DNA of 64,000 nucleotides, from positions 5,518,001-5,582,000 of the forward strand of contig OZ024744.1 of NCBI GenBank assembly GCA_964016885.1. Direction: 5' to 3'. The stretch's first letter is position 1. The number at the start of each line of letters is the position of its first letter. The translations under genes were made by a program, and so were the position numbers. Below the pieces are notes generated by a model. That model was not told the origin of the DNA, ran no database searches, and was given only the letters and a program-made list of their open reading frames with translations. Below are positions 1 through 60,899 of the stretch, piece by piece. The stretch comes from Eledone cirrhosa. Its lineage: Eukaryota.

Positions 1-3000
1 CAACGGTAGTACCTCACTACATGTGACATATTTAGGTGGCAACTGTGGTATAGAGTTCATCAGGATCAACGGTAGTACCTCACTCTATGTGACATATTTA
101 GGTGGTTACTGTAGTATAGAGTTCATCAGGATCAACGGTAGTACCACACTATATGTGACATATTTAGGTGGTAACTGTGGTATAGACAGTCCATCATGAT
201 CAACGGTAGTACCTCACTATATGTGACATATTTAGGTGGTAACTGTGGTATAGACAGTTCATCAGGATCAACGGTAGTACCTCACTATATGTGACATATT
301 TAGGTGGTAACTGTGGTATAGACAGTTCATCAAGATCAACGGTAGTACCTCACTATATGTGACATATTTAGGTGGCAACTGTGGTATAGAGTTCATCAGG
401 ATCAACGGTAGTACCTCACTACATGTGACATATTTAGGTGGCAACTGTGGTATAGAGTTCATCAGGATCAACGGTAGTACCTCACTCTATGTGACATATT
501 TAGGTGGTTACTGTAGTATAGAGTTCATCAGGATCAACGGTAGTACCTCACTATATGTGACATATTTAGGTGGTAACTGTGATATAGACAGTTCATCAGG
601 ATCAACTGTAATACCTAACTATATGTGACACATTTAGGTGGTAACTGTGGTATAGACAGTTCATCAGGATCAACGGTAGTACCTCACTATATGTGACATA
701 TTTAGGTGGTAACTGTGGTATAGAGTTCATCAGGATCAACGGTAGTACCTCACTATATGTGACATATTTAGGTGGTAACTGTGGTATAGAGTTCATCAGG
801 ATCAACGGTAGTACCTCACTATATGTGACATATTTAGGTGGTAACTGTGGTATAGACTGTTCATCAGGATCAACGGTAGTACCTCACTATATGTGACATA
901 TTTAGGTGGTAACTGTGGTATAGACAGTCCATCATGATCAACGGTAGTACCTCACTATATGTGACATATTTAGGTGGTAACTGTGGTATAGACAGTTCAT
1001 CAGGATCAACGGTAGTACCTCACTATATGTGACATATTTAGGTGGTAACTGTGGTATAGACAGTTCATCAAGATCAACGGTAGTACCTCACTATATGTGA
1101 CATATTTAGGTGGCAACTGTGGTATAGAGTTCATCAGGATCAACGGTAGTACCTCACTACATGTGACATATTTAGGTGGCAACTGTGGTATAGAGTTCAG
1201 CAGGATCAACGGTAGTACCTCACTCTATGTGACATATTTAGGTGGTTACTGTAGTATAGAGTTCATCAGGATCAACGGTAGTACCTCACTATATGTGACA
1301 TATTTAGGTGGTAACTGTGGTATAGACAGTTCATCAGGATCAACGGTAGTACCTCACTATATGTGACATATTTAGGTGGCAACTGAGGTATAGAGTTCAT
1401 CAGGATCAACGGTAGTACCTCACTATATGTGACATATTTAGGTGGTAACTGTGGTATAGAGTTCATCAGGATCAACGGTAGTACCTCACTATATGTGACA
1501 TATTTAGGTGGTAACTGTAGTATAGACAGTTCATCAGGATCAACGGTAGTACCTCACTCTATGTGACATATTTAGGTGGTAACTGTGGTATAGACAGTTC
1601 ATCAGGATCAACTGTAGTACCTCACTATATGTGACATATTTAGGTGGTAACTGTGGTATAGACAGTTAATCAGGATCAAGGGTAGTACCTCACTATATGT
1701 GACATATTTAGGTGGTATCTATGGTATAGACAGTTCATCAGGATCAACGGTAGTACCTCACTATATGTGACATATTTAGGTGGTAACTGTGGTATAGACA
1801 GTTCATCAGGATCAACGGTAGTACCTCACTATATGTGACATATTTAGGTGGTAACTGTGGTATAGAGTTCATCAGCATCAACGTTAGTACCTCACTCTAT
1901 GTGACATATTTAGGTGGTAACTGTGGTATAGACAGTTCATCAGGATCAACGGTAGTACCTCACTATATGTGACATATTTAGGTGGTAACTGTGGTATAGA
2001 CAGTTCATCAAAATCAACGGTAGTACCTCACTATATGTGACATATTTAAGTGGTAACTGTGGTATAGACAGTTCATCAGGATCAACGGTAGTACCTCACT
2101 ATATGTGACATATTTAGGTGGTAACTGTGGTATAGAGTTCATCAGGATCAACGGTAGTACCTCACTATATGTGACATATTTAGGTGGTAACTGTGGTATA
2201 GTGTTCATCATAATCAACGGTAGCACCTCACTATATGTGACATATTTAGGTGGCAACTGTGGTATAGAGTTCATCAGGATCAACGGTAGTACCTCACTAT
2301 ATGTGACATATTTAGGTGGTAACTGTGGTATAGAGTTCATCAAGATCAAGGGTAGTACCTCACTATATGTGACATATTTAGGTGGTAACTGAGGTATAGA
2401 GTTCATCAGGATCAACGGTAGTACCTCACTATATGTGACATATTTAGGTGGTAACTGTGGTATAGACAGTTCATCAGGATCAACGGTAGTACCTCACTAT
2501 ATGTGACATATTTAGGTGGCAACTGAGGTATAGAGTTCATCAGGATCAACGGTAGTACCTCACTATATGTGACATATTTAGGTGGTAACTGTGGTATAGA
2601 GTTCATCAGGATCAACGGTAGTACCTCACTATATGTGACATATTTAGGTGGTAACTGTAGTATAGACAGTTCATCAGGATCAACGGTAGTACCTCACTCT
2701 ATGTGACATATTTAGGTGGTAACTGTGGTATAGACAGTTCATCAGGATCAACTGTAGTATCTCACTATATGTGACATATTTAGGTGGTAACTGTGGTATA
2801 GACAGTTAATCAGGATCAAGGGTAGTACCTCACTATATGTGACATATTTAGGTGGTATCTATGGTATAGACAGTTCATCAGGATCAACGGTAGTACCTCA
2901 CTATATGTGACATATTTAGGTGGTAACTGTGGTATAGACAGTTCATCAGGATCAACGGTAGTACCTCACTATATGTGACATATTTAGGTGGTAACTGTGG

Positions 3001-6000
3001 TATAGAGTTCATCAGCATCAACGTTAGTACCTCACTCTATGTGACATATTTAGGTGGTAACTGTGGTATAGACAGTTCATCAGGATCAACGGTAGTACCT
3101 CACTATATGTGACATATTTAGGTGGTAACTGTGGTATAGACAGTTCATCAAAATCAACGGTAGTACCTCACTATATGTGACATATTTAAGTGGTAACTGT
3201 GGTATAGACAGTTCATCAGGATTAACGGTAGTACCTCACTATATGTGACATATTTAGGTGGTAACTGTGGTATAGAGTTCATCAGGATCAACGGTAGTAC
3301 CTCACTATATGTGACATATTTAGGTGGTAACTGTGGTATAGACTGTTCATCAGGATCAACGGTAGTACCTCACTATATGTGACATATTTAGGTGGTAACT
3401 GTGGTATAGACAGTCCATCATGATCAACGGTAGTACCTCACTATATGTGACATATTTAGGTGGTAACTGTGGTATAGACAGTTCATCAGGATCAACGGTA
3501 GTACCTCACTATATGTGACATATTTAGGTGGTAACTGTGGTATAGACAGTTCATCAAGATCAACGGTAGTACCTCACTATATGTGACATATTTAGGTGGC
3601 AACTGTGGTATAGAGTTCATCAGGATCAACGGTAGTACCTCACTACATGTGACATATTTAGGTGGCAACTGTGGTATAGAGTTCAGCAGGATCAACGGTA
3701 GTACCTCACTCTATGTGACATATTTAGGTGGTTACTGTAGTATAGAGTTCATCAGGATCAACGGTAGTACCTCACTATATGTGACATATTTAGGTGGTAA
3801 CTGTGGTATAGACAGTTCATCAGGATCAACGGTAGTACCTCACTATATGTGACATATTTAGGTGGCAACTGAGGTATAGAGTTCATCAGGATCAACGGTA
3901 GTACCTCACTATATGTGACATATTTAGGTGGTAACTTTGGTATAGAGTTCATCAGGATCAACGGTAGTACCTCACTATATGTGACATATTTAGGTGGTAA
4001 CTGTAGTATAGACAGTTCATCAGGATCAACGGTAGTACCTCACTCTATGTGACATATTTAGGTGGTAACTGTGGTATAGACAGTTCATCAGGATCAACTG
4101 TAGTACCTCACTATATGTGACATATTTAGGTGGTAACTGTGGTATAGACAGTTAATCAGGATCAAGGGTAGTACCTCACTATATGTGACATATTTAGGTG
4201 GTATCTATGGTATAGACAGTTCATCAGGATCAACGGTAGTACCTCACTATATGTGACATATTTAGGTGGTAACTGTGGTATAGACAGTTCATCAGGATCA
4301 ACGGTAGTACCTCACTATATGTGACATATTTAGGTGGTAACTGTGGTATAGAGTTCATCAGCATCAACGTTAGTACCTCACTCTATGTGACATATTTAGG
4401 TGGTAACTGTGGTATAGACAGTTCATCAGGATCAACGGTAGTACCTCACTATATGTGACATATTTAGGTGGTAACTGTGGTATAGACAGTTCATCAAAAT
4501 CAACGGTAGTACCTCACTATATGTGACATATTTAAGTGGTAACTGTGGTATAGACAGTTCATCAGGATCAACGGTAGTACCTCACTATATGTGACATATT
4601 TAGGTGGTAACTGTGGTATAGAGTTCATCAGGATCAACGGTAGTACCTCACTATATGTGACATATTTAGGTGGTAACTGTGGTATAGTGTTCATCATAAT
4701 CAACGGTAGCACCTCACTATATGTGACATATTTAGGTGGCAACTGTGGTATAGAGTTCATCAGGATCAACGGTAGTACCTCACTATATGTGACATATTTA
4801 GGTGGTAACTGTGGTATAGAGTTCATCAAGATCAAGGGTAGTACCTCACTATATGTGACATATTTAGGTGGTAACTGAGGTATAGAGTTCATCAGGATCA
4901 ACGGTAGTACCTCACTATATGTGACATATTTAGGTGGTAACTGTGGTATAGACAGTTCATCAGGATCAACGGTAGTACCTCACTATATGTGACATATTTA
5001 GGTGGCAACTGAGGTATAGAGTTCATCAGGATCAACGGTAGTACCTCACTATATGTGACATATTTAGGTGGTAACTGTGGTATAGAGTTCATCAGGATCA
5101 ACGGTAGTACCTCACTATATGTGACATATTTAGGTGGTAACTGTAGTATAGACAGTTCATCAGGATCAACGGTAGTACCTCACTCTATGTGACATATTTA
5201 GGTGGTAACTGTGGTATAGACAGTTCATCAGGATCAACTGTAGTACCTCACTATATGTGACATATTTAGGTGGTAACTGTGGTATAGACAGTTAATCAGG
5301 ATCAAGGGTAGTACCTCACTATATGTGACATATTTAGGTGGTATCTATGGTATAGACAGTTCATCAGGATCAACGGTAGTACCTCACTATATGTGACATA
5401 TTTAGGTGGTAACTGTGGTATAGACAGTTCATCAGGATCAACGGTAGTACCTCACTATATGTGACATATTTAGGTGCTAACTGTGGTATAGACAGTTCAT
5501 CAAAATCAACGGTAGTACCTCACTATATGTGACATATTTAAGTGGTAACTGTGGTATAGACAGTTCATCAGGATCAACGGTAGTACCTCACTATATGTGA
5601 CATATTTAGGTGGTAACTGTGGTATAGAGTTCATCAGGATCAACGGTAGTACCTCACTATATGTGACATATTTAGGTGGTAACTGTGGTATAGACTGTTC
5701 ATCAGGATCAACGGTAGTACCTCACTATATGTGACATATTTAGGTGGTATCTATGGTATAGACAGTTCATCATGATCAACGGTAGTACCTCACTATATGT
5801 GACATATTTAGGTGGTAACTGTGGTATAGACAGTTCATCAGGATCAACGGTAGTACCTCACTATATGTGACATATTTAGGTGGTAACTGTGGTATAGACA
5901 GTTCATCAAGATCAACGGTAGTACCTCACTATATGTGACATATTTAGGTGGCAACTGTGGTATAGAGTTCATCAGGATCAACGGTAGTACCTCACTACAT

Positions 6001-9000
6001 GTGACATATTTAGGTGGCAACTGTGGTATAGAGTTCAGCAGGATCAACGGTAGTACCTCACTCTATGTGACATATTTAGGTGGTTACTGTAGTATAGAGT
6101 TCATCAGGATCAACGGTAGTACCTCACTATATGTGACATATTTAGGTGGTAACTGTGGTATAGACAGTTCATCAGGATCAACGGTAGTACCTCACTATAT
6201 GTGACATATTTAGGTGGCAACTGAGGTATAGAGTTCATCAGGATCAACGGTAGTACCTCACTATATGTGACATATTTAGGTGGTAACTGTGGTATAGAGT
6301 TCATCAGGATCAACGGTAGTACCTCACTATATGTGACATATTTAGGTGGTAACTGTAGTATAGACAGTTCATCAGGATCAACGGTAGTACCTCACTCTAT
6401 GTGACATATTTAGGTGGTAACTGTGGTATAGACAGTTCATCAGGATCAACTGTAGTACCTCACTATATGTGACATATTTAGGTGGTAACTGTGGTATAGA
6501 CAGTTAATCAGGATCAAGGGTAGTACCTCACTATATGTGACATATTTAGGTGGTATCTATGGTATAGACAGTTCATCAGGATCAACGGTAGTACCTCACT
6601 ATATGTGACATATTTAGGTGGTAACTGTGGTATAGACAGTTCATCAGGATCAACGGTAGTACCTCACTATATGTGACATATTTAGGTGGTAACTGTGGTA
6701 TAGAGTTCATCAACATCAACGTTAGTACCTCACTCTATGTGACATATTTAGGTGGTAACTGTGGTATAGACAGTTCATCAGGATCAACGGTAGTACCTCA
6801 CTATATGTGACATATTTAGGTGGTAACTGTGGTATAGACAGTTCATCAAAATCAACGGTAGTACCTCACTATATGTGACATATTTAAGTGGTAACTGTGG
6901 TATAGACAGTTCATCAGGATCAACGGTAGTACCTCACTATATGTGACATATTTAGGTGGTAACTGTGGTATAGAGTTCATCAGGATCAACGGTAGTACCT
7001 CACTATATGTGACATATTTAGGTGGTAACTGTGGTATAGTGTTCATCATAATCAACGGTAGCACCTCACTATATGTGACATATTTAGGTGGCAACTGTGG
7101 TATAGAGTTCATCAGGATCAACGGTAGTACCTCACTATATGTGACATATTTAGGTGGTAACTGTGGTATAGAGTTCATCAAGATCAAGGGTAGTACCTCA
7201 CTATATGTGACATATTTAGGTGGTAACTGAGGTATAGAGTTCATCAGGATCAACGGTAGTACCTCACTATATGTGACATATTTAGGTGGTAACTGTGGTA
7301 TAGACAGTTCATCAAGATCAACGGTAGTACCTCACTATATGTGACATATTTAGGTGGTAACTGTGGTATAGAGTTCATCAGGATCAACGGTAGTACCTCA
7401 CTATATGTGACATATTTAGGTGGTAACTGTGGTATAGACAGTTCATCAGGTTCAACGGTAGTACCTCACTATATGTGACATATTTAGGTGGTAACTATGG
7501 TATAGACAGTTCATCAAGATCAACGGTAGTACCTCACTATATGTGACATATTTAGGTGGTAACTGTGGTATAGACAGTTCATCAGGATCAACGGTAGTAC
7601 CTCACTATATGTGACATATTTAGGTGGTAACTGTGGTATAGAGTTCATCAAGATCAACGGTAGTACCTCACTATATGTGACATATTTAGGTGGTAACTGT
7701 GGTATAGAGTTCATTAGGATCAACGGTAGTACCTCACTATATGTGACATATTTAGGTGGTAACTGTAGTATAGAGTTCATCAGGATCAACGGTAGTACCT
7801 CACTATATGTGACATATTTAGGTGGTAACTGTGGTATAGACAGTTCATCAGGATCAACGGTAGTACCTCACTATATGTGACATATTTAGGTGGTAATTGT
7901 GGTATAACATTCTTCATGATCAACGGTAGTACCTCACTATATGTGACATATTTAGGTGGTAACTGTGGTATAGACAGTTCATCAGGATCAACTGTAGTAC
8001 CTCACTATATGTGACATATTTAGGTGGTAACTGTGGTATAGAGTTCATCAGGATCAACGGTAGTACCTCACTATATGTGACATATTTAGGTGGTAACTGT
8101 GGTATAGACAGTTCATCAGGATCAACGGTAGTACCTCACTATATGTGACATATTTAGGTGGTAACTGTGGTATAGACATTTCATCAGGATCAACGGTAGT
8201 ACCTCACTATATGTGACATATTTAGGTGGCAACTGTGGTATAGACAGTTCATCAGGATCAACGGTAGTACCTCACTATATGTGACATATTTAGGTGGTAA
8301 CTGTGGTATAGACAGTTCATCAGGATCAACGGTAGTACCTCACTATATGTGACATATTTAGGTGGTAACTGTGGTATAGACAGTTCATCAGGATCAACGG
8401 TAGTACCTCACTATATGTGACATATTTAGGTGGTAACTGTAGTATAGACAGTTCATCAGGATCAACGGTAGTACCTCACTATATGTGACATATTTAGGTG
8501 GTAACTGTGGTATAGACAGTTCATCAGGATCAACGGTAGTACCTCACTATATGTGACATATTTAGGTGGTAACTGTGGTATAGAGTTCATCAGGATCAAC
8601 GGTAGTACCTCACTATATGTGACATATTTAGGTGGTAACTGTGGTATAGACAGTTCATCAGGATCAACGGTAGTACCTCACTATATGTGACATATTTAGG
8701 TGGTAACTGTGGTATAGAGTTCATCAGGATCAACGGTAGTACCTCACTATATGTGACATATTTAGGTGGTAACTGTGGTATAGACAGTTCATCAAGATCA
8801 ACGGTAGTACCTCACTCTATGTGACATATTTAGGTGGTAACTGTGGTATAGAGTTCATCAGGATCAACGGTAGTACCTCACTATATGTGACATATTTAGG
8901 TGGTAACTGTGGTATAGACAGTTCATCAAGATCAACGGTAGTACCTCACTCTATGTGACATATTTAGGTGGTAACTGTGGTATAGAGTTCATCAGGATCA

Positions 9001-12000
9001 ACGGTAGTACCTCACTCTATGTGACATATTTAGGTGGTTACTGTAGTATAGAGTTCATCAGGATCAACGGTAGTACCTCACTATATGTGACATATTTAGG
9101 TGGTAACTGTGATATAGACAGTTCATCAGGATCAACTGTAATACCTAACTATATGTGACACATTTAGGTGGTAACTGTGGTATAGACAGTTCATCAGGAT
9201 CAACGGTAGTACCTCACTATATGTGACATATTTAGGTGGTAACTGTGGTATAGAGTTCATCAGGATCAACGGTAGTACCTCACTATATGTGACATATTTA
9301 GGTGGTAACTGTGGTATAGAGTTCATCAGGATCAACGGTAGTACCTCACTATATGTGACATATTTAGGTGGTAACTGTGGTATAGACTGTTCATCAGGAT
9401 CAACGGTAGTACCTCACTATATGTGACATATTTAGGTGGTAACTGTGGTATAGACAGTCCATCATGATCAACGGTAGTACCTCACTATATGTGACATATT
9501 TAGGTGGTAACTGTGGTATAGACAGTTCATCAGGATCAACGGTAGTACCTCACTATATGTGACATATTTAGGTGGTAACTGTGGTATAGACAGTTCATCA
9601 AGATCAACGGTAGTACCTCACTATATGTGACATATTTAGGTGGTAACTGTGGTATAGACAGTTCATCAGGATCAACGGTAGTACCTCACTATATGTGACA
9701 TATTTAGGTGGCAACTGAGGTATAGAGTTCATCAGGATCAACGGTAGTACCTCACTATATGTGACATATTTAGGTGGTAACTGTGGTATAGAGTTCATCA
9801 GGATCAACGGTAGTACCTCACTATATGTGACATATTTAGGTGGTAACTGTGGTATAGAGTTCATCAGGATCAACGGTAGTACCTCACTATATGTGACATA
9901 TTTAGGTGGTAACTGTGGTATAGACAGTTCATCAGGATCAACGGTAGTACCTCACTATATGTGACATATTTAGGTGGTAACTGTGGTATAGACAGTCCAT
10001 CATGATCAACGGCAGTACCTCACTATATGTGACATATTTAGGTGGTAACTGTGGTATAGACAGTTCATCAAGATCAACGGTAGTACCTCACTATATGTGA
10101 CATATTTAGGTGGCAACTGTGGTATAGTTTTCATCAGTATCAACGGTAGTACCTCACTACATGTGACATATTTAGGTGGCAACTGTGGTATAGAGTTCAT
10201 CAGGATCAACGGTAGTACCTCACTCTATGTGACATATTTAGGTGGTTACTGTAGTATAGAGTTCATCAGGATCAACGGTAGTACCACACTATATGTGACA
10301 TATTTAGGTGGTAACTGTGGTATAGACAGTCCATCATGATCAACGGTAGTACCTCACTATATGTGACATATTTAGGTGGTAACTGTGGTATAGACAGTTC
10401 ATCAGGATCAACGGTAGTACCTCACTATATGTGACATATTTAGGTGGTAACTGTGGTATAGACAGTTCATCAAGATCAACGGTAGTACCTCACTATATGT
10501 GACATATTTAGGTGGCAACTGTGGTATAGAGTTCATCAGGATCAACGGTAGTACCTCACTACATGTGACATATTTAGGTGGCAACTGTGGTATAGAGTTC
10601 AGCAGGATCAACGGTAGTACCTCACTCTATGTGACATATTTAGGTGGTTACTGTAGTATAGAGTTCATCAGGATCAACGGTAGTACCTCACTATATGTGA
10701 CATATTTAGGTGGTAACTGTGGTATAGACAGTTCATCAGGATCAACGGTAGTACCTCACTATATGTGACATATTTAGGTGGCAACTGAGGTATAGAGTTC
10801 ATCAGGATCAACGGTAGTACCTCACTATATGTGACATATTTAGGTGGTAACTGTGGTATAGAGTTCATCAGGATCAACGGTAGTACCTCACTATATGTGA
10901 CATATTTAGGTGGTAACTGTAGTATAGACAGTTCATCAGGATCAACGGTAGTACCTCACTCTATGTGACATATTTAGGTGGTAACTGTGGTATAGACAGT
11001 TCATCAGGATCAACTGTAGTACCTCACTATATGTGACATATTTAGGTGGTAACTGTGGTATAGACAGTTAATCAGGATCAAGGGTAGTACCTCACTATAT
11101 GTGACATATTTAGGTGGTATCTATGGTATAGACAGTTCATCAGGATCAACGGTAGTACCTCACTATATGTGACATATTTAGGTGGTAACTGTGGTATAGA
11201 CAGTTCATCAGGATCAACGGTAGTACCTCACTATATGTGACATATTTAGGTGGTAACTGTGGTATAGAGTTCATCAGCATCAACGTTAGTACCTCACTCT
11301 ATGTGACATATTTAGGTGGTAACTGTGGTATAGACAGTTCATCAGGATCAACGGTAGTACCTCACTATATGTGACATATTTAGGTGGTAACTGTGGTATA
11401 GTCAGTTCATCAAAATCAACGGTAGTACCTCACTATATGTGACATATTTAAGTGGTAACTGTGGTATAGACAGTTCATCAGGATCAACGGTAGTACCTCA
11501 CTATATGTGACATATTTAGGTGGTAACTGTGGTATAGAGTTCATCAGGATCAACGGTAGTACCTCACTATATGTGACATATTTAGGTGGTAACTGTGGTA
11601 TAGTGTTCATCATAATCAACGGTAGCACCTCACTATATGTGACATTTTTAGGTGGCAACTGTGGTATAGAGTTCATCAGGATCAACGGTAGTACCTCACT
11701 ATATGTGACATATTTAGGTGGTAACTGTGGTATAGAGTTCATCAAGATCAAGGGTAGTACCTCAATATATGTGACATATTTAGGTGGTAACTGAGGTATA
11801 GAGTTCATCAGGATCAACGGTAGTACCTCACTATATGTGACATATTTAGGTGGTAACTGTGGTATAGACAGTTCATCAAGATCAACGGTAGTACCTCACT
11901 ATATGTGACATATTTAGGTGGTAACTGTGGTATAGAGTTCATCAGGTTCAACGGTAGTACCTCACTATATGTGACATATTTAGGTGGTAACTATGGTATA

Positions 12001-39000: not shown

Positions 39001-42000
39001 CTGTGGTATAGACAGTCCATCAAGATCAACGGTAGTACCTCACTCTATGTGACATATTTAGGTGGTAACTGTGGTATAGAGTTCATCAGGATCAACGGTA
39101 GTACCTCACTATATGTGACATATTTAGGTGGTAACTGTGGTATAGACAGTTCATCAGGTTCAACGGTAGTACCTCACTATATGTGACATATTTAGGTGGT
39201 AACTGTGGTATAGACAGTTCATCAGGATCAACGGTAGTACCTCACTATATATGACATATTTAGGTGGTAACTGTGGTATAGACAGTTCAACAGGATCAAC
39301 AGTAGTACCTCACTATATGTGACATATTGAGGTGGTAACTGTGGTATAGAGTTCATCAGGATCAACGGTAGTACCTCACTATATGTGACATATTTAGGTG
39401 GTAACTGTAGTATAGAGTTCATCAGGATCAACGGTAGTACCTCACTCTATGTGACATATTTAGGTGGTAACTGTGATATAGAGCTAATCAAGATCAACGG
39501 TAGTACCTCACTATATGTGACATATTTAGGTGGTAACTGTGGTATAGAGTTCATCAGGATCAACGGTAGTACCTCACTATATGTGACATATTTAGGTGGT
39601 AACTGTGATATAGAGCTAATCAAGATCAACGGTAGTACCTCACTATATGTGACATATTTAGGTGGTAACTGTGGTATAGACAGTTCATCAGGATCAACGG
39701 TAGTACCTCACTATATGTGACATATTTAGGTGGTAACTGTGGTATAGACAGTTCATCAGGATCAACGGTAGTACCTCACTATATGTGACATATTTAGGTG
39801 GTAACTGTGATATAGAGTTCATCAGGATCAACGGTAGTACCTCACTATATGTGACATATTTAGGTGGTAACTGTGATATAGAGCTAATCAAGATCAACGG
39901 TAGTACCTCACTATATGTGACATATTTAGGTGGTAACTGTGGTATAGAGTTCATCAGGATCAACGGTAGTACCTCACTATATGTGACATATTTAGGTGGT
40001 AATTGTGGTATAAAATCCTTCATGATCAACGTTAGTACCTCACTCTATGTGACATATTTAGGTGGTAACTGTGGTATAGAGTTCATCAGGATCAACGGTA
40101 GTACCTCACTATATGTGACATATTTAGGTGGTACCTGTGGTATAGAGTTCATCAGGATCAACGGTAGTACCTCACTATATGTGACATATTTAGGTGTTAA
40201 CTGTGATATAGACAGTTCATCAGGATCAACTGTAGTACCTCACTATATGTGACATATTTAGGTGGTAACTGTGGTATAGACAGTTCATCAGGATCAACGG
40301 TAGTACCTCACTATATGTGACATATTTAGGTGGTAACTGTGGTATAGACAGTTCATCAGGATCAACGGTAGTACCTCACTATATGTGACATATTTAGGTG
40401 GTAACTGTGGTATAGAGTTCATCAAGATCAACGGTAGTACCTCACTATATGTGACATATTTAGGTGGTAACTGTGGTATAGACAGTTCATCAAGATCAAC
40501 GGTAGTACCTCACTATATGTGACATATTTAGGTGGTAACTGTGGTATAGACAGTTCATCAAGATCAACGGTAGTACCTCACTATATGTGACATATTTAGG
40601 TGGTAACTGTGGTATAGACAGTCCATCATGATCAACGGTAGTACCTCACTATATGTGACATATTTAGGTGGTAACTGTGGTATAGACAGTTCATCAGGAT
40701 CAACGGTAGTACCTCACTATATGTGACATATTTAGGTGGTTACTGTGATATAGACAGTTTATCAAGATCAACGGTAGTACCTCACTATATGTGACATATT
40801 TAGGTGGTAACTGTGGTATAGACAGTTTATCAAGATCAACGGTAGTACCTCACTATATGTGACATATTTAGGTGGTAACTGTGGTATAGAGTTCATCAGG
40901 ATCAACGGTAGTACCTCACTATATGTGACATATTTAGGTGGTAACTGTGGTATAGAGTTCATCAAGATCAACGCTAGTACCTCACTATATGTGACATATT
41001 TAGGTGGTAACTGTGGTATAGAGTTCATCAGGATCAACGGTAGTACCTCACTATATGTGACATATTTAGGTGGTAACTGTGATATAGACAGTTCATCAGG
41101 ATCAACGGTAGTACCTCACTATATGTGACATATTTAGGTGGTAACTGTGGTATAGACAGTTCATCAGGTTCAACGGTAGTACCTCACTATATGTGACATA
41201 TTTAGGTGGTAACTGTGGTATAGACAGTTCATCAGGATCAACGGTAGTACCTCACTATATGTGACATATTTAGGTGGTAACTGTAGTATAGACAGTTCAT
41301 CAGGAGCAACGGTAGTACCTCACTATATGTGGCATATTTAGGTGGCAACTGTGGTATAGAGTTCATCAGGATCAACGGTAGTACCTCACTCTATGTGACA
41401 TATTTAGGTGGTAACTGTGGTATAGACAGTTCATCAGGATCAACGGTAGTACCTCACTATATGTGACATATTTAGGTGGTAACTGTAGTATAGAGTTCAT
41501 CAGGATCAACGGTAGTACCTCACTCTATGTGACATATTTAGGTGGTAACTGTGGTATAGAGCTAATCAAGATCAACGGTAGTACCTCACTATATGTGACA
41601 TATTTAGGTGGTAACTGTGGTATAGAGCTAATCAAGATCAACGGTAGTACCTCACTATATGTGACATATTTAGGTGGTAACTGTGGTATAGAGTTCATCA
41701 GGATCAACGGTAGTACCTCACTATATGTGACATATTTAGGTGGTAACTGTAGTATAGACAGTTCATCAAGATCAACGGTAGTACCTCACTATATGTGACA
41801 TGTTTAGGTGGTAACTGTGGTATAGACAGTTCATCAAGATCAACGGTAGTACCTCACTATATGTGACATATTTAGGTGGTAACTGTGGTATAGACAGTTC
41901 ATCAGGATCAACGGTAGTACCTCACTATATATGACATATTTAGGTGGTAACTGTGGTATAGACAGTCCATCAGGATCAACGGTAGTACCTCACTATATGT

Positions 42001-45000
42001 GACATATTTAGGTGGTAACTGTGGTATAGAGTTCATCAGGATCAACGGTAGTACCTCACTATATGTGACATATTTAGGTGGTAACTGTGGTATAGAGTTC
42101 ATCAGTATCAACGGTAGTACCTCACTATATGTGACATATTTAGGTGGTAACTGTGGTATAGACAGTTCATCAGGATTAACGGTAGTACCTCACTATATGT
42201 GACATATTTAGGTGGTAACTGTGGTATAGACAGTTCATCAAGATCAACGGTAGTACCTCACTATATGTGACATATTTAGGTGGTAACTGTGGTATAGAGT
42301 TCATCAGGATCAACGGTAGTACCTCACTATATGTGACATATTTAGGTGGTAACTGTGGTATAGAGTTCATCAGGATCAACGGTAGTACCTCACTATATGT
42401 GACATATTTAGGTGGTAACTGTGGTATAGAGTTCATCAGGATCAACGGTAGTACCTCACTATATATGACATATTTAGGTGGTAACTGTGGTATAGACAGT
42501 TCATCAGGATCAACGGTAGTACCTCACTATATGTGACATATTGAGGTGGTTACGGTGGTATAGAGTTCATCAGGATAAATGGTAGTACCTCACTATATGT
42601 GACATATTTAGGTGGTAACTGTGGTATAGACAGTCCATCAAGATCAACGGTAGTACCTCACTATATGTGACATATTTAGGTGGTAACTGTGGTATAGACA
42701 GTTCATCAGGATCAACGGTAGTACCTCACTATATGTGACATATTGAGGTGGTTACGGTGGTATAGAGTTCATCAGGATCAATGGTAGTACCTCACTATAT
42801 GTGACATATTTAGGTGGTAACTGTGGTATAGACAGTCCATCAAGATCAACGGTAGTACCTCACTATATGTGACATATTTAGGTGGTAACTGTGGTATAGA
42901 CAGTTCATCAGGATCAACGGTAGTACCTCACTATATGTGACATATTGAGGTGGTTACGGTGGTATAGAGTTCATCAGGATCAATGGTAGTACCTCACTAT
43001 ATGTGACATATTTAGGTGGTAACTGTGGTATAGACAGTCCATCAAGATCAACGGTAGTACCTCACTATATGTGACATATTTAGGTGGTAACTGTGGTATA
43101 GACAGTCCATCAAGATCAACGGTAGTACCTCACTATATGTGACATATTTAGGTGGTAACTGTGGTATAGACAGTTCATCAGGATCAACGGTAGTACCTCA
43201 CTATATGTGACATATTTAGGTGGCAACTGTGGTATAGAGTTCATCAGGATCAACGGTAGTACCTCACTATATGTGACATATTTAGGTGGTAACTATGGTA
43301 TAGACAGTCCATCAAGATCAACGGTAGTACCTCACTATATGTGACATATTTAGGTGGTAACTGTGGTATAGACAGTACATCAAGATCAACGGTAGTACCT
43401 CACTATATGTGACATATTTAGGTGGTAACTGTGGTATAGACAGTTCATCAGGTTCAACGGTAGTACCTCACTATATGTGACATATTTAGGTGGTAACTGT
43501 GATATAGACAGTTCATCAGGATCAACGGTAGTACCTCACTATATGTGACATATTTAGGTGGTAACTGTGGTATAGACAGTTCATCAGGATCAACGGTAGT
43601 ACCTCACTATATATGACATATTTAGGTGGTAACTGTGGTATAGACAGTTCATCAAGATCAACGTTAGTACCTCACTATATGTGACATATTTAGGTGGTAA
43701 CTGTGGTATAGAGTTCATCAGGATCAACGGTAGTACCTCACTATATGTGACATATTTAGGTGGTAACTGTGGTATAGACAGTTCATCAGGATCAACGGTA
43801 GTACCTCACTATATGTGACATATTTAGGTGGTTACGGTGGTATAGAGTTCATCAGGATCAATGGTAGTACCTCACTATATGTGACATATTTAGGTGGTAA
43901 CTGTGGTATAGACAGTTCATCAAGATCAACGGTAGTACCTCACTATATGTGACATATTTAGGTGGTAACTGTGATATAGAGTTCATCAGGATCAACGGTA
44001 GTACCTCACTCTATGTGACATATTTAGGTGGTAACTGTGGTATAGACAGTTCATCAAGATCAACGTTAGTACCTCACTATATGTGACATATTTAGGTGGT
44101 AACTGTGGTATAGACAGTCCATCAGGATCAACGGTAGTACCTAACTATATGTGACATATTTAGGTGGTAACTGTGGTATAGACAGTTCATCAGGATCAAC
44201 GGTAGTACCTCACTATATGTGACATATTTAGGTGGTAACTGTGGTATAGACAGTTCATCAAGATCAACGGTAGTACCTCACTATATGTGACATATTTAGG
44301 TGGTAACTGTGGTATAGACAGTTCATCAAGATCAACTGTAGTACCTCACTATATGTGACATATTTAGGTGGTAACTGTGATATAGAGTTCATCAGGATCA
44401 ACGGTAGTACCTCACTATATGTGACATATTTAGGTGGTAACTGTGATATAGAGCTAATCAGGATCAACGGTAGTACCTCACTATATGTGACATATTTAGG
44501 TGGTTACTGTGGTATAGACAGTTCATCAAGATCAACGGTAGTACCTCACTATATGTGACATATTTAGGTGGCAACTGTGGTATAGAGTTCATCAGGATCA
44601 ACGGTAGTACCTCACTACATGTGACATATTTAGGTGGCAACTGTGGTATAGAGTTCATCAGGATCAACGGTAGTACCTCACTGTATGTGACATATTTAGG
44701 TGGTTACTGTAGTATAGAGTTCATCAGGATCAACGGTAGTACCTCACTATATGTGACATATTTAGGTGGTAACTGTGGTATAGACAGTTCATCAGGATCA
44801 ACGGTAGTACCTCACTATATGTGACATATTTAGGTGGCAACTGAGGTATAGAGTTCATCAGGATCAACGGTAGTACCTCACTATATGTGACATATTTAGG
44901 TGGTAACTGTGGTATAGAGTTCATCAGGATCAACGGTAGTACCTCACTATATGTGACATATTTAGGTGGTAACTGTGGTATAGACAGTTCATCAGGATCA

Positions 45001-48000
45001 ACGGTAGTACCTCACTATATGGGACATATTTAGGTGGTAACTGTGGTATAGAGTTCATCAGGATCAACGGTAGTACCTCACTATATGTGACATATTTAGG
45101 TGGTAACTGTGGTATAGACAGTTCATCATGATCAACGGTAGTACCTCACTACATGTGACATATTTAGGTGGCAACTGTGGTATAGAGTTCATCAGGATCA
45201 ACGGTAGTACCTCACTATATGTGACATATTTAGGTGGTAACTGTGGTATAGACAGTTCATCAAGATCAACGGTAGTACCTCACTATATGTGACATATTGA
45301 GGTGGTTACGGTGGTATAGACAGTTCATCAGGATCAACGGTAGTACCTCACTATATGTGACATATTGAGGTGGTTACGGTGGTATAGACAGTTCATCAGG
45401 ATCAACGGTAGTACCTCACTATATGTGACATATTTAGGTGGTAACTGTGGTATAGAGTTCATCAGGATCAACGGTAGTACCTCACTATATGTGACATATT
45501 TAGGTGGTAACTGTGGTATAGACAGTTCATCAAGATCAACGGTAGTACCTCACTATATGTGACATATTTAGGTGGTAACTGGGATATAGAGTTCATCAGG
45601 ATCAACGGTAGTACCTCACTATATGTGACATATTTAGGTGGCAACTGTGGTATAGAGTTCATCAGGATCAACGGTAGTACCTCACTATATGTGACATATT
45701 TAGGTGGTAACTGTGGTATAGACAGTTCATCAGGATCAACGGTAGTACCTCACTATATGTGACATATTGAGGTGGTTACGGTGGTATAGAGTTCATCAGG
45801 ATCAATGGTAGTACCTCACTATATGTGACATATTTAGGTGGTAACTGTGGTATAGAGTTCATCAGGATCAACGGTAGTACCTCACTATATGTGACATATT
45901 TAGGTGGTAACTGTGGTATAGACAGTCCATCAGGATCAACGGTAGTACCTCACTATATGTGACATATTTAGGTGGTAACTGTGGTATAGAGTTCATCAGG
46001 ATCAACGGTAGTACCTCACTATATGTGATATATTTAGGTGGTAACTGTGGTATAGAGTTCATCAGGATCAACGGTAGTACCTCACTATATGTGACATATT
46101 TAGGTGGTAACTGTAGTATAGAGTTCATCAGGATCAACGGTAGTACCTCACTATATGTGACATATTTAGGTGGTAACTGTGATATAGACAGTTCATCAGG
46201 ATCAACGGTAGTACCTCACTATATGTGACATATTTAGGTGGCAACTGTGCTATAGACAGTCCATCATGATCAACGGTAGTACCTCACTCTATGTGACATA
46301 TTTAGGTGGTAACTGTGGTATAGAGTTCATCAGGATCAACGGTAGTACCTCACTATATGTGACATATTTAGGTGGTAACTGTGGTATAGACAGTTCATCA
46401 GGTTCAACGGTAGTACCTCACTATATGTGACATATTTAGGTGGTAACTGTGGTATAGACAGTTCATCAGGATCAACGGTAGTACCTCACTATATATGACA
46501 TATTTAGGTGGTAACTGTGGTATAGACAGTTCATCAGGATCAACGGTAGTACCTCACTATATGTGACATATTGAGGTGGTAACTGTGGTATAGAGTTCAT
46601 CAGGATCAACGGTAGTACCTCACTATATGTGACATATTTATGTGGTAACTGTAGTATAGAGTTCATCAGGATCAACGGTAGTACCTCACTCTATGTGACA
46701 TATTTAGGTGGTAACTGTGATATAGAGCTAATCAAGATCAACGGTAGTACCTCACTATATGTGACATATTTAGGTGGTAACTGTGGTATAGAGTTCATCA
46801 GGATCAACGGTAGTACCTCACTATATGTGACATATTTAGGTGATAACTGTAGTATAGAGTTCATCAGGATCAACGGTAGTACCTCACTATATGTGACATA
46901 TTTAGGTGGTAACTGTGATATAGAGCTAATCAAGATCAACGGTAGTACCTCACTATATGTGACATATTTAGGTGGTAACTGTGGTATAGACAGTTCATCA
47001 GGATCAACGGTAGTACCTCACTATATGTGACATATTTAGGTGGTAACTGTGGTATAGACAGTTCATCAGGATCAACGGTAGTACCTCACTATATGTGACA
47101 TATTTAGGTGGTAACTGTGATATAGAGTTCATCAGGATCAACGGTAGTACCTCACTATATGTGACATATTTAGGTGGTAACTGTGATATAGAGTTCATCA
47201 GGATCAACGGTAGTACCTCACTATATGTGACATATTTAGGTGGTAACTGTGATATAGAGCTAATCAAGATCAACGGTAGTACCTCACTATATGTGACATA
47301 TTTAGGTGGTAACTGTGGTATAGAGTTCATCAGGATCAACGGTAGTACCTCACTATATGTGACATATTTAGGTGGTAATTGTGGTATAAAATTCTTCATG
47401 ATCAACGTTAGTACCTCACTGTATGTGACATATTTAGGTGGTAACTGTGGTATAGAGTTCATCAGGATCAACGGTAGTACCTCACTATATGTGACATATT
47501 TAGGTGGTACCTGTGGTATAGAGTTCATCAGGATCAACGGTAGTACCTCACTATATGTGACATATTTAGGTGTTAACTGTGATATAGACAGTTCATCAGG
47601 ATCAACTGTAGTACCTCACTATATGTGACATATTTAGGTGGTAACTGTGGTATAGATTTCATCAGGATCAAGGGTAGTACCTCACTATATGTGACATATT
47701 TAGGTGGTAACTGTGGTATAGACAGTTCATCAGGATCAACGGTAGTACCTCACTATATGTGACATATTTAGGTGGTAACTGTGGTATAGACAGTTCATCA
47801 GGATCAACGGTAGTACCTCACTATATGTGACATATTTAGGTGGTAACTGTGGTATAGAGTTCATCAAGATCAACGGTAGTACCTCACTATATGTGACATA
47901 TTTAGGTGGTAACTGTGGTATAGACAGTCCATCATGATCAACGGTAGTACCTCACTATATGTGACATATTTAGGTGGTAACTGTGGTATAGACAGTTCAT

Positions 48001-50639
48001 CAGGATCAACGGTAGTACCTCACTATATGTGACATATTTAGGTGGTTACTGTGATATAGACAGTTTATCAAGATCGACGGTAGTACCTCACTATATGTGA
48101 CATATTTAGGTGGTAACTGTGGTATAGACAGTTCATCAAGATCAACGGTAGTACCTCACTATATGTGACATATTTAGGTGGTAACTGTGGTATAGACAGT
48201 CCATCATGATCAACGGTAGTACCTCACTATATGTGACATATTTAGGTGGTAACTGTGGTATAGACAGTTCATCAGGATCAACGGTAGTACCTCACTATAT
48301 GTGACATATTTAGGTGGTTACTGTGATATAGACAGTTTATCAAGATCAACGGTAGTACCTCACTATATGTGACATATTTAGGTGGTAACTGTGGTATAGA
48401 CAGTTTATCAAGATCAACGGTAGTACCTCACTATATGTGACATATTTAGGTGGTAACTGTGGTATAGAGTTCATCAGGATCAACGGTAGTACCTCACTAT
48501 ATGTGACATATTTAGGTGGTAACTGTGGTATAGAGTTCATCAAGATCAACGGTAGTACCTCACTATATGTGACATATTTAGGTGGTAACTGTGGTATAGA
48601 GTTCATCAGGATCAACGGTAGTACCTCACTATATGTGACATATTTAGGTGGTAACTGTGATATAGACAGTTCATCAGGATCAACGGTAGTACCTCACTAT
48701 ATGTGACATATTTAGGTGGTAACTGTGGTATAGACAGTTCATCAGGTTCAACGGTAGTACCTCACTATATGTGACATATTTAGGTGGTAACTGTGGTATA
48801 GACAGTTCATCAGGATCAACGGTAGTACCTCACTATATGTGACATATTTAGGTGGTAACTGTAGTATAGACAGTTCATCAGGATCAACGGTAGTACCTCA
48901 CTATATGTGACATATTTAGGTGGTTACTGTGATATAGACAGTTTATCAAGATCAACGGTAGTACCTCACTATATGTGACATATTTAGGTGGTAACTGTGG
49001 TATAGACAGTTCATCAAGATCAACGGTAGTACCTCACTATATGTGACATATTTAGGTGGTAACTGTGGTATAGAGTTCATCAAGATCAACGGTAGTACCT
49101 CACTATATGTGACATATTTAGGTGGTAACTGTGGTATAGAGTTCATCAGGATCAACGGTAGTACCTCACTATATGTGACATATTTAGGTGGTAACTGTGA
49201 TATAGACAGTTCATCAGGATCAACGGTAGTACCTCACTATATGTGACATATTTAGGTGGTAACTGTGGTATAGACAGTTCATCAGGTTCAACGGTAGTAC
49301 CTCACTATATGTGACATATTTAGGTGGTAACTGTGGTATAGACAGTTCATCAGGATCAACGGTAGTACCTCACTATATGTGACATATTTAGGTGGTAACT
49401 GTAGTATAGACAGTTCATCAGGATCAACGGTAGTACCTCACTATATGTGGCATATTTAGGTGGCAACTGTGGTATAGAGTTCATCAGGATCAACGGTAGT
49501 ACCTCACTCTATGTGACATATTTAGGTGGTAACTGTGGTATAGACAGTTCATCAGGATCAACGGTAGTACCTCACTATATGTGACATATTTAGGTGGTAA
49601 CTGTAGTATAGAGTTCATCAGGATCAACGGTAGTACCTCACTCTATGTGACATATTTAAGTGGTAACTGTGGTATAGAGCTAATCAAGATCAACGGTAGT
49701 ACCTCACTATATGTGACATATTTAGGTGGTAACTGTGGTATAGAGCTAATCAAGATCAACGGTAGTACCTCACTATATGTGACATATTTAGGTGGTAACT
49801 GTGGTATAGAGTTCATCAGGATCAACGGTAGTACCTCACTATATGTGACATATTTAGGTGGTAACTGTGGTATAGACAGTTCATCAAGATCAACGGTAGT
49901 ACCTCACTATATGTGACATATTTAGGTGGTAACTGTGGTATAGACAGTTCATCAGGATCAACGGTAGTACCTCACTATATATGACATATTTAGGTGGTAA
50001 CTGTGGTATAGACAGTCCATCAGGATCAACGGTAGTACCTCACTATATGTGACATATTTAGGTGGTAACTGTGGTATAGAGTTCATCAGGATCAACGGTA
50101 GTACCTCACTATATGTGACATATTTAGGTGGTAACTGTGGTATAGAGTTCATCAGGATCAACGGTAGTACCTCACTATATATGACATATTTAGGTGGTAA
50201 CTGTGGTATAGACAGTTCATCAGGATCAACGGTAGTACCTCACTATATATGACATATTTAGGTGGTAACTGTGGTATAACAGTCCATCAAGATCAACGGT
50301 AGTACCTCACTATATGTGACATATTTAGGTGGTTACTGTAGTATAGAGTTCATCAGGATCAACGGTAGTACCTCACTATATGTGACATATTTAGGTGGTA
50401 ACTGTGGTATAGACAGTTCATCAGGATCAACGGTAGTACCTCACTATATGTGACATATTTAGGTGGTAACTGTGGTATAGACAGTTCATCAGGATCAACG
50501 GTAGTACCTCACTATATGTGACATATTTAGGTGGTAACTGTGGTATAGACAGTTCATCAGGATCAAGGGTAGTACCTCACTATATGTGACATATTTAGGT
50601 GGTAACTGTAGTATAGAGTTCATCAAGATCAACGGTAGT
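1..50639. repeat. Tandem satellite array, 66/68-bp dimorphic monomer, about 750 copies, open at the left window edge
   Basis: Consensus CAACGGTAGTACCTCACTATATGTGACATATTTAGGTGGTAACTGTGGTATAGA(CA)GTTCATCAGGAT repeated head-to-tail without interruption. Most copies differ from consensus by 0-4 substitutions. Copy number is array length divided by about 67 bp. Confidence 0.99.
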
Positions 50640-50730
50640 GAGATAAGCATTCAATCATATCTACCTTACTGTATGTGACATAATTAGGTGTTAACTGAGG
50701 CATGGACAGTTCATCTTGATCAACGGTATT
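50640..50730. repeat. Diverged terminal 91-bp unit of the array (68-bp type monomer plus 23 extra bp)
   Basis: GATCAACGGTA occurs at 50627 and again at 50718 (91 bp apart). Between them lie the 23-bp GAGATAAGCATTCAATCATATCT and a monomer with 9 substitutions that has the GACAG (68-bp) form. Confidence 0.92.
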
Positions 50731-51310
50731 GTTGGCTTATATATTTGTTTTGTTGTCAGTTGACATTGTTGGCTAATTGGACGTCCGCCATGTTTATTCC
50801 ATCAAGCCTATCTGGATATTTCTTTCTACTTTCTGAAATTTCTCGTTTTAGTTTTATCTGTTTGAGTCCCGTTAATTTCTTGTTAAAATGTTTGTATTTC
50901 TGGAAGATGTATTTTCCTTCTTCGTGTATAATGTTTATCGATTTTGATTTTCTGTTGGTGTAGTGATTTTACTCATTTCTTGTATTAGGTTACCTTTTAA
51001 TTTTTCTTGTTGGCTTAATTCTATGTAAATTTTCTTTTTGTGTTTAGAATCAGTGTTTGAATCTATCAGCTTGTCTTTTGGTTAGTTGGAGTTTTCTTAC
51101 ATTGATGGTGTAAAATCTGGATGAGGCACATTGTTTTATGAAGTGCAGTTGTCGAATTGTTATTGATTTCTTTAGACAACAGAACATGTCGGCTTTCAGT
51201 GTCTTGTTAGCTTGGCTAGAGCTTACGGTAATTCGTTTTTGTATTTTTTTCGCGAGATTTCTTATCTGAAAACGTGTGTTGAAACAGATATTGTTATATT
51301 TTGGCAGCAT
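50641..51310 (-). pseudogene. Frameshifted N-terminal ORF fragment of a Penelope-like element, same family as the 57.9-60.7 kb copy
   Basis: Minus strand reads MLPKYNNICFNTRFQIRNLAKK...IRQLHFIKQC..., then across frameshifts KKKIYIELSQQEKLKGNL / INIIHEEGKYIFQKYKHFNKKLTGLKQIKLKRE...YPDRLDGINMADVQL / TVDQDELSMPQLTPNYVTYSKVDMIECLS. The start region TTGGCAGCATGACCCTCCCAAAGTATAACAAT (51301-51332) matches TTGGCAACATGACCCTCCCAAAGCATAACAAT at the 3' end of the RT/GIY-YIG element (60715-60746) with 2 mismatches. Confidence 0.75.
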
Positions 51311-51388
51311 GACCCTCCCAAAGTATAACAATACCTGTTTCAACACACGCTTTCAGATAAGAAATCTCGCAAAACAAATAAAAAAACG

Positions 51389-51393
<5 letters not shown>
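51229..51393. repeat. Fold-back inverted repeat (about 76-bp arms, 13-nt loop) at the 5' end of the PLE fragment, resembling an inverted pLTR tail
   Basis: Left arm TAATTCGTTTTTG...GTTATATTTTGG is imperfectly complementary to right arm CCAAAGTATAAC...AAAAAACGAATTA. The right arm ends directly at a (TA)n tract. Confidence 0.93.
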
Positions 51394-56263: not shown

Positions 56264-56293
56264 TGTGTGTGTGTATATATATGTATATATATA

Positions 56294-57893: not shown

Positions 57894-57895
<2 letters not shown>

Positions 57896-60372: not shown

Positions 60373-60550
60373 GGCCAAAATGAAAACACACACACACGAC
60401 CAACCAGTAACATGTAAATAAACAAATAAATAAACAAATATAAACACACACAGACACCCGGATGTAACACATGCGCAAACTAAGCACACAAAAACAAGAT
60501 GGCGTAGGACAGAACAAAGGAGATGCACAAAAGAAAGAAAAGAATCCCCA

Positions 60551-60593
60551 GTCACTGAAGAGGTCACAGAATGTGTGACGAAAGAACTTTGAC
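60551..60593 (+). ncRNA. Minimal type I hammerhead ribozyme in the PLE pLTR
   Basis: GTCA-CTGAAGA-G-GTCACA(GAATG)TGTGAC-GAAA-GAAC-T-T-TGAC: intact core, 6-bp stem II, stem I GTCA/TGAC, very short stem III. Minimal hammerheads are an established feature of PLE pLTRs. Confidence 0.85.
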
Positions 60594-60899
60594 AATATAT
60601 GAACAACCGTCCGGTTGTGGAACCAACCAACAACCGGAAATTTATAAATTCCTAAATTTATAAATTTAATTTATAATAAATTTGAGTGAAAGTAACTGGT
60701 GCGTGTGTTTCTTATTGGCAACATGACCCTCCCAAAGCATAACAATATATATATATATATTTAAAAGTTAAACAAGGTTCAATGAATACATCAAAGAATG
60801 AGTTTTACAATAGATTGGAAGCACTCAATAGAAAAGGTTTTCCAGAGTACTACCATGACTGAATCTTAACCATCTACTATGTCAGGGTATGTCATGTAT

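What the first reader, a model, noticed from the sequence alone, without database searches (positions are those of the whole stretch)
1..51310. A >50-kb satellite apparently amplified from 68 bp of a Penelope-like element ORF, still attached to its parent element
Seen: on the minus strand the 68-bp monomer reads ACC GTT GAT CCT GAT GAA CTG TCT ATA CCA CAG TTA CCA CCT AAA TAT GTC ACA TAT AGT GAG GTA (TVDPDELSIPQLPPKYVTYSEV; some copies ..SILQLPPKY..). The flanking DNA at 50731-51310 is a frameshifted ORF on the same strand that runs into the terminal monomer. Its start matches the pLTR tail of the RT/GIY-YIG element at 60715-60746. Recalled, not searched: an E..L.LPPK[FY]..Y..vd motif occurs upstream of the RT in Neptune-type PLE proteins. 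The 57894 copy starts just downstream of where that motif should lie. Inference: the array grew in place from a coding segment of the retroelement rather than from a UTR or terminal repeat, leaving the birth site visible.
Basis: partly seen in the sequence, partly recalled or inferred. Interest (0 to 1): 0.9.

Follow-up and report, generated by a model that had tools for sequence, protein, structure and literature searches.

The report
Satellite born inside a retroelement gene
A 97,000-base block of 68-base repeats is a copied-out piece of a jumping gene's protein-coding sequence and still touches the broken gene copy it likely grew from, so the birth of a satellite DNA can be read almost base by base.

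Summary
Confirmed, with corrections. The 68/66-bp array is 97,022 bp long (1,443 units; 46 kb lies left of the window). All 1,023 genome-wide matches to its junction lie in this one array. The monomer is a coding segment of a Neptune/Nematis-type Penelope-like element (PLE), the conserved N-terminal GxKF/Y-type motif. None of 130 dispersed copies holds it more than once. The array joins, in register, a decayed copy of an older subfamily. That copy's last unit is 91 bp and shares two bases with the monomer that no dispersed copy has together (chance about 0.02). Corrections: the 57894 element is a separate, younger insertion; the 'pLTR' match is an inverted tail; the far end abuts an unrelated 31-bp satellite, so the 3' half is missing. 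Best model: DNA-level tandem duplication in a dead copy, a 23-bp deletion, then amplification beside other satellites. The closest precedent is the Chenopodium tnp2-derived satellite; eight literature searches found no PLE-ORF case. Lead: two other copies carry small arrays ending at the same ORF position. The scan's index showed no earlier record of this.

The parts
1..50636 (-). 68/66-bp satellite array: 755 units start in the window; the whole array is 1,443 units, 97,022 bp, G000:C28:5,471,615-5,568,636; each unit is 22 codons of the PLE ORF plus 2 bases
   Evidence: single locus
50637..50727 (-). 91-bp terminal unit: the parent's own copy of the monomer (57 of 66 identical to the commonest unit) plus 23 bp of native ORF continuation; joined bluntly to the array at 50637/50636 (junction J1)
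   Evidence: J1 spanned with 0 differences by a 434-bp short-read contig
50728..51304 (-). Decayed 5' part of the PLE ORF, from about ORF nt 10, old subfamily, with frameshifts and stops; 9% private divergence
51301..51392 (+). Inverted 3' tail of the element (end of UTR, ATG at 51309, ORF to about nt 85-89), forming a hairpin with 51229-51300; typical PLE 5' inversion
   Evidence: structure described in PMC8557442
51392..51422 (.). (TA)n target microsatellite of the parent insertion
57894..60749 (+). Separate 5'-truncated PLE copy of the younger subfamily (RT with DKSG and YVDD, CX4CX2C linker, GIY-YIG, hammerhead-like core at 60555-60583, short tail) between TA runs; same family, not the parent

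Best explanation
This is a single-locus satellite whose unit is a coding segment of a Penelope-like retroelement, and it likely grew in place from the dead copy it still touches. Shown: the unit is the element's N-terminal LPPKY motif; it occurs once in dispersed copies; the array lies in register with an old-subfamily copy and exists at one place only. Inferred steps: (1) an old-subfamily copy inserted into (TA)n with an inverted tail and began to decay, gaining C29 and T50; (2) a DNA-level tandem duplication (replication slippage or break repair) repeated a 91-bp piece, leaving blunt junction J1; (3) a 23-bp deletion across one such junction, with 1 bp of microhomology, made the 68-bp unit, which is why both junctions share one left end; (4) unequal exchange and multi-unit duplications amplified and homogenised the 68/66-bp units, while the edge unit escaped and kept mutating; (5) the 3' part of the element was lost when the array was joined to the 31-bp satellite. 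The array is out of frame and likely has no coding role.
For: Unit present once in all 130 distinct unit-bearing dispersed places, none with two. An open frame reading the motif spans it in 44 of 49 loci, and one natural 881-aa ORF runs from the N-terminus through it into the RT. The motif block aligns in 30 of 31 distant homologues. 1,023 of 1,023 exact junction matches in the 3.0-Gb assembly are in this array. Monomer and terminal unit are both old-subfamily type and share C29 (0 of 130 dispersed copies) and T50 (1 of 130, a young-type copy); simulated chance of two shared changes 0.021. The flank falls in the old-subfamily clade with support 1.0. Units differ 1.9% from the commonest unit, with block duplications at lags of 47, 59 and 158 units. 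Family 3' ends cluster at ORF nt ~30 and ~88 (29 and 27 of 104), not at the unit. J1 is present in short-read contigs and the monomer is at far higher depth (that run may be the assembly's own sample).
Against: By raw identity the monomer is closer to a dispersed copy (L114, 60 of 66) than to the terminal unit (57 of 66). One other pair of the 78 tested (L105-L121) also shares two jointly private bases, so that signal is moderate. T29, the ancestral state, is in 67 of 1,443 units including the one next to the terminal unit; C>T is the commonest change in the array, so reversal is plausible but not shown. No 91-bp unit survives inside the array, so step 3 rests on junction geometry alone. The far end holds no PLE sequence, and an assembly gap at C28:4.7547 Mb hides what lies beyond the 35-bp satellite.
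Confidence: 0.8

Rival explanations
1. The repeats were made by the element's own telomerase-like reverse transcriptase, which re-copied a 68-91 nt template stretch during insertion; the host only enlarged the seed later.
For: PLE RTs are the sister group of telomerase RTs (PMC8557442). Both junctions share a left end within 2 nt. Other copies carry young-looking internal arrays (50 bp x 13.4 in L095; 41 bp x 13 at the 5' junction of L121).
Against: The family's 3' ends lie at ORF nt ~30 and ~88, about 500 nt from the unit, matching the two-site initiation described for another PLE (PMC11167929). The two shared private bases suggest the copy had begun to decay before duplication. 5' truncation points of 90 anchor-sampled copies show no cluster at the site (none between reference positions 569 and 591). 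No strong RNA structure there (z 0.07 and 0.26).
Confidence: 0.07
2. The array arose in another PLE copy or on a DNA circle and was later placed beside this copy by homology-directed recombination; the shared bases come from conversion or chance.
For: The monomer is only 5 changes from the old-subfamily majority and closer to L114 than to the terminal unit. The far end is a non-homologous join to another satellite, so rearrangements did happen here.
Against: No second array or donor scar was found. J1 is a blunt non-homologous junction, not a clean crossover. The shared bases are interspersed with terminal-only changes.
Confidence: 0.09
3. The adjacency or the array is an assembly artefact.
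For: The region is satellite-rich and has a scaffold gap 0.72 Mb further left.
Against: No N in the window or in the 20 left-hand stretches. A 434-bp short-read contig spans J1 with no difference, and 98-bp tandem-monomer contigs occur in two further runs. 271 distinct units with ordered block duplications.
Confidence: 0.02

Closest known systems
Chenopodium CficCl-61-40 satellite from the tnp2 domain of CACTA-like element Jozin (PMC7320549; abstract and passages read)
   Same: A short coding fragment of a transposon is the start monomer of an attached, same-orientation array, 82-95% identical to the array consensus (here 86%); the parent is a partial element; the same segment seeds more than one array.
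   Different: That is a DNA transposon in plants and an abundant multi-locus family with attached arrays of 8-94 monomers in contigs. Here it is a PLE retroelement in an animal, one locus, 1,443 units, with a longer relic unit at the edge.
Satellites related to retroelement ORFs: chicken HinfI/CR1 ORF2, Phodopus PROsat/L1 ORF2, rye and Aegilops gag-related repeats (as reviewed in PMC9659126; passages and table)
   Same: Coding sequence of a retroelement became tandem DNA, so 'from ORF rather than UTR/LTR' has precedent.
   Different: The review lists them by sequence similarity; it has no occurrence of 'Penelope'. In the passages seen, no parent copy at the array edge is described.
Ogre-derived satellites of Lathyrus (PMC7004042; passages) and Athila sub-sequence arrays in Rosa centromeres (bioRxiv 10.64898/2026.09.17.752431, section 9)
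   Same: Retroelement-derived repeats that expand in or near satellite-rich chromosome regions.
   Different: Ogre arrays pre-exist as short tandem arrays in the family downstream of the coding region; Athila units are 1.6-2.2 kb. Here the family carries the unit once, so tandemisation was de novo in one copy.
Penelope-related tandem DNA: Harttia HviSat02-2707 (PMC11955569; passages) and non-LTR retrozymes from PLE pLTRs (bioRxiv 10.64898/2026.07.22.740005; abstract only)
   Same: Tandem repeats derived from or related to PLEs are known.
   Different: Retrozymes derive from the ribozyme-bearing pLTR and are thought to be mobile. For the catfish satellite only a relationship to Penelope is stated in the passages seen. 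This monomer is 68 bp of ORF and is confined to one locus.

Membership tests
Canonical EN+ Penelope-like element (parent family) | Single ORF with RT and C-terminal GIY-YIG endonuclease | tested here: met
   Natural 881-aa ORF from N-terminus into RT; YVDD and DKSG in the 57894 copy; Pfam GIY-YIG at its cut-off, E 1.4e-4, downstream of RT. Pfam gave no RT family hit for two proteins.
Canonical EN+ Penelope-like element (parent family) | N-terminal GxKF/Y motif upstream of RT (PMC8557442) | tested here: met
   The monomer peptide aligns with this block in 30 of 31 homologues; it reads LPPK[FY] in several and LGPKF in P0071 and P0099. Equating it with the published motif is my inference from position and sequence.
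Canonical EN+ Penelope-like element (parent family) | Partial tandems (pLTR), 5' inverted copies and tail extension | tested here: met
   partial tandems and inversions in most extended loci; two tail lengths, ~30 and ~88 nt.
Canonical EN+ Penelope-like element (parent family) | Hammerhead ribozyme in the pLTR | tested here: inconclusive
   CTGAnGA-stem-GAAA core at 60555-60583, conserved among held copies, and the stem folds, but Rfam gave no hammerhead hit.
Neptune or Nematis clade | CX2-5CxxC linker before the EN, CCHH motif, (TA)n targeting | tested here: met
   CIDKKCIIC linker and Cys/His residues in the EN; copies end in (TA)n. This excludes Penelope/Poseidon, Hydra and Naiad as defined in PMC8557442.
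Neptune clade specifically | RT phylogeny with named Neptune references | not testable with these tools
   No Repbase/Dfam references available; homologues are unnamed.
Satellite DNA | Long, homogeneous head-to-tail non-coding array | tested here: met
   97 kb, 1,443 units, 3.5% mean pairwise difference, no interruption, frame broken by 68/66-bp periods and stops.
TE-derived satellite born in place (Chenopodium type) | Start monomer is part of an attached parent element, same orientation | tested here: met
TE-derived satellite born in place (Chenopodium type) | Parent element flanks the array on both sides | tested here: not met
   The far end joins a 31-bp satellite directly; no old-type 3' half in about 74 kb of 31-bp array, in sampled stretches of the 35-bp array, or in 160 kb beyond the gap.
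Non-LTR retrozyme (PLE pLTR-derived tandem) | Monomer derives from the pLTR and holds a hammerhead | tested here: not met
   The monomer maps to ORF nt ~590-655, far from the pLTR; no Rfam hit in the units scanned.
Centromeric satellite | CENP-A occupancy | not testable with these tools
   Only position is known: outermost of a chain of satellites near the start of C28.

The most novel reading that the evidence does not exclude
One position in this PLE's ORF (GGCAA|C, just after an internal ATATATA run that resembles the family's TA target) is a recurrent seed of tandem arrays, perhaps because the element's own GIY-YIG nuclease cuts old genomic copies there. Three independent copies have arrays with a boundary at that position: 12 bp x 3, 50 bp x 13 and 68 bp x 1,443. 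The family would then be a site-specific satellite nursery showing a whole birth series in one genome, with only the copy beside heterochromatin growing large.
Probability: 0.2. Interest if true: 0.78.

Novelty: new variant of a known kind. Interest (0 to 1): 0.55.

Why it matters
How a new satellite starts from single-copy DNA is usually guessed from similarity after the birthplace is gone. Here the un-repeated ancestral state survives in hundreds of dispersed copies, the parent and a relic longer unit survive at the edge, and the array is at one locus. The order of events, the first junctions and the rates of change inside and outside an array can therefore be measured: 3 private changes in the monomer against 7 in the edge unit since they parted. 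Orthologous loci in relatives would date each step. The general phenomenon has precedent, which caps the surprise.

Tried and rejected
Rest of the element at the far end: not found in L065-L072, nor as an old-type 3' half in 160 kb beyond the scaffold gap, where only a young plus-strand copy lies. PLE origin of the 31-bp and 35-bp neighbours: no match beyond 11-15 bp words. The 65-bp x 11 arrays near L018/L023 are not PLE-derived. Breakage hotspot for 5' truncation at the shared site: not seen. Special RNA structure of the monomer or site: none. Surviving 91-bp units or native continuation inside the array: none. Regular higher-order repeat over the whole array: no, only local block duplications. 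Rfam: only sub-threshold hits to microsatellite-like models. Pfam RT families: no hit. Expression: no RNA holder listed, which is no evidence either way. RAD run X7 showed only dispersed-copy alleles at the unit; reduced representation makes that uninformative. Earlier scan findings: nothing near, and one unrelated note by words. PMC11136912 has no occurrence of Penelope or Neptune. No supplements were read; satellitome tables there could hold unremarked PLE-ORF satellites.

Full report
Setting. The window is G000:C28:5,518,001-5,582,000 in a 3.0-Gb animal assembly. I did not try to identify the organism or sample.

The array. TRF finds one 68-bp array over 1-50639. Neighbouring stretches extend it to C28:5,471,615. 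It holds 1,443 units in 97,022 bp: 883 of 68 bp, 553 of 66 bp and 7 others, 271 distinct, all in one orientation and uninterrupted. Units differ on average 1.9% from the commonest unit and 3.5% from each other. There is no array-wide higher-order repeat, only local block duplications (lags 47, 59, 158 units). A 25-mer spanning the unit junction has 1,023 exact matches in the assembly and all 1,023 are in this array. A paired-word search inside the monomer gave 1,270 matches: 1,254 in the array, 15 listed elsewhere (none reads as PLE; the 8 loci fetched from the first 12 had no PLE match) and one unlisted. The satellite is therefore single-locus in this assembly.

The monomer is PLE coding sequence. 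Two DNA searches, one with the flank and one with the start of the 57894 element, returned 29 other loci each (40 of about 1,900 candidates scored each). With a strict cut-off the unit was present once in 26 of 29 and 20 of 29, and in the order flank-unit-57894 start in 22 of 29 and 19 of 29; the gap from unit to 57894 start was 329-767 bp (one place is in both sets). An open frame reading TVD(P/S)DELSILQLPPKYATYNKVNMI-type peptide spans the unit in 44 of 49 unit-bearing loci. One natural copy has an 881-aa ORF running through the unit into the RT. Across 202 loci, 130 distinct unit-bearing places were found and none had two units. A search of 1.84 billion protein representatives gave 3,351 hits. 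In 30 of 31 aligned homologues the same block is present, reading LPPK[FY] or LGPKF in several. [quoted passage not shown] The family has a C-terminal GIY-YIG, a CX4CX2C linker, TA targets and two tail lengths, which places it in Neptune/Nematis.

The parent. Reading the minus strand from 51422: (TA)15, an inverted tail (51301-51392 on plus), the ORF from about nt 10, then a 91-bp unit and the array. The flank is 83-88% like an older subfamily and groups with it at support 1.0 among 97 copies; it carries 48 private differences in 532 columns (9%). The 57894 copy is 93-96% like the young subfamily and 77-81% like the old one, lies on the other strand and has its own TA flanks, so it is an independent insertion.

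Link between array and parent. Against the column majority of 11 old-type copies the monomer has 5 changes and the terminal unit 9; two are the same (C29, T50). C29 occurs in 0 of 130 dispersed copies and T50 in 1 of 130. A simulation gives 0.021 for two shared changes by chance, and 2 of 78 pairs (this one and L105-L121) share two jointly private bases. Against this, the monomer is 60 of 66 identical to L114 but 57 of 66 to the terminal unit, and 67 units carry the ancestral T29. The base evidence alone is moderate. Together with exact in-register adjacency and the single locus it makes in-place origin the best reading.

Junctions. J1 joins native ...TGCTTATCT to CACTACC..., a blunt 91-bp duplication junction. 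The monomer junction joins ...AGGTA to CTACC... with one base of microhomology. Both return to the same left point within 2 nt. The simplest account is a 91-bp tandem, a 23-bp deletion across one junction, and a sweep of the shorter unit, with the edge unit left behind. This is inference; no other 91-bp unit remains. A 434-bp short-read contig from run X1 spans J1 without a difference, and monomer contigs are at about 1,700-2,000 depth against 5.4 (X1 may be the assembly's own sample, and depth is not copy number). Runs X4 and X5, labelled as two other organisms from one study, each hold a 98-bp contig matching the tandem monomer with 1-2 differences but not the flank. This may mean the satellite predates those species or may be contamination; I cannot tell.

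Far end and context. The last unit stops at base 19 and joins a 31-bp satellite directly. That array is 73.8 kb and single-locus (345 of 345 matches). It joins a 35-bp satellite of about 640 kb, which ends at a 200-N gap at C28:4.7547 Mb. Beyond the gap are a 20-bp array, some ordinary DNA and, in all 16 probes from 0 to 4.48 Mb, a 48-bp satellite on both strands. The PLE-derived array is the outermost layer of this block toward the chromosome arm. A pericentromeric position is likely but untested. Neither neighbour matches the PLE.

Mechanism. Reverse-transcriptase reiteration is disfavoured. The family's 3' ends cluster at ORF nt ~30 and ~88 (29 and 27 of 104), like the two initiation sites described for the anole PLE (PMC11167929, parts 1-2 of 4 read), and the shared private bases point to duplication after decay began. 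DNA-level duplication followed by ordinary satellite amplification gets 0.8. Unrelated short tandem arrays turned up in all three paired-word searches, so seeds are common in this genome.

A lead. Among the 202 loci (not all distinct), four PLE-associated arrays had about three or more non-native units. Two end at the position where J1 begins: 50 bp x 13.4 in an old-type copy at C28:93.64 Mb and 12 bp x 3 at C8:35.80 Mb. A genome-wide paired-word search at that site found just these two internal PLE loci; two other ORF words found none outside this array among listed hits. Rough chance is 3e-4 to 3e-2 depending on assumptions, and the test is post hoc. 5' truncations do not cluster there (none of 73 between positions 569 and 591). 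I give a true hotspot 0.2.

Comparison with print. The Chenopodium CficCl-61-40 satellite has the same architecture from a CACTA tnp2 fragment (PMC7320549; abstract and passages). ORF-related satellites from CR1, L1 and gag are reviewed in PMC9659126 (passages). PMC12692304 lists Penelope elements among satellite sources (passages), and PMC11955569 reports one Penelope-related satellite (passages). Eight full-text searches showed no described case of a short satellite from a PLE ORF attached to its parent; the library lacks most subscription papers and I read no supplements.

Verdict. Real, correctly interpreted in its core, a new variant of a known kind. It is valuable as an unusually legible birth site rather than as a new mechanism. 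Interest 0.55.

Noticed in passing
G000:C28:93,643,371-93,644,032 (L004/L095 and L144): Old-subfamily PLE copy with an internal 50-bp x 13.4 array, both element halves intact; its 3' boundary is the position where the window's array starts.
   Followed up: yes
G000:C8:35,802,102-35,802,135 (L042:834-869): Young-type PLE copy with a 12-bp x 3 in-frame duplication (IYGK) ending at the same ORF position.
   Followed up: yes
L121:2267-2796 (G000:C23:17.90 Mb): 41-bp x 13 array sitting exactly at the 5' inversion junction of an old-type PLE copy; the unit is mostly not PLE sequence.
   Followed up: partly
G000:C28:4.755-5.472 Mb (L091, L065-L080): Two further satellites (35 bp, about 640 kb; 31 bp, 73.8 kb, single-locus) abut each other and the 68-bp array with no spacer; origins unknown.
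   Followed up: partly
G000:C28:1-4.48 Mb (L271-L285, L303): 48-bp satellite in all 16 probes, with strand switches; candidate centromeric block. 20-bp, 96-bp and 466-bp arrays lie between 4.60 and 4.75 Mb.
   Followed up: partly
L191 (G000:C12:5.4498 Mb): Three tandem copies of only the ~30-nt PLE tail separated by TA-rich spacers; possibly repeated abortive insertions or a tandemised tail.
   Followed up: no
window 60555-60583: Minimal hammerhead-like core in the pLTR, conserved across copies but missed by Rfam.
   Followed up: partly
window 52400-54300 (minus) and 61750-64000 (minus): Fragments of two other non-LTR retroelements (RTE-like and a restriction-like-endonuclease type by eye; labels recalled, not searched).
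   Followed up: no
window 55860-56082 and 56274-56674 / 57461-57892: A 220-bp hairpin element, and a 430-bp inverted repeat pair at 88% identity just upstream of the 57894 element.
   Followed up: no
L018:416-1105 and L023:473-1163 (G000:C4:78.43 and 78.18 Mb): Duplicated segment holding a 3'-truncated PLE and a 65-bp x 11 array that is not PLE-derived.
   Followed up: yes
runs X4 and X5: Runs labelled as two other organisms hold the tandem monomer at 97-98% identity at low depth, without the flank.
   Followed up: partly
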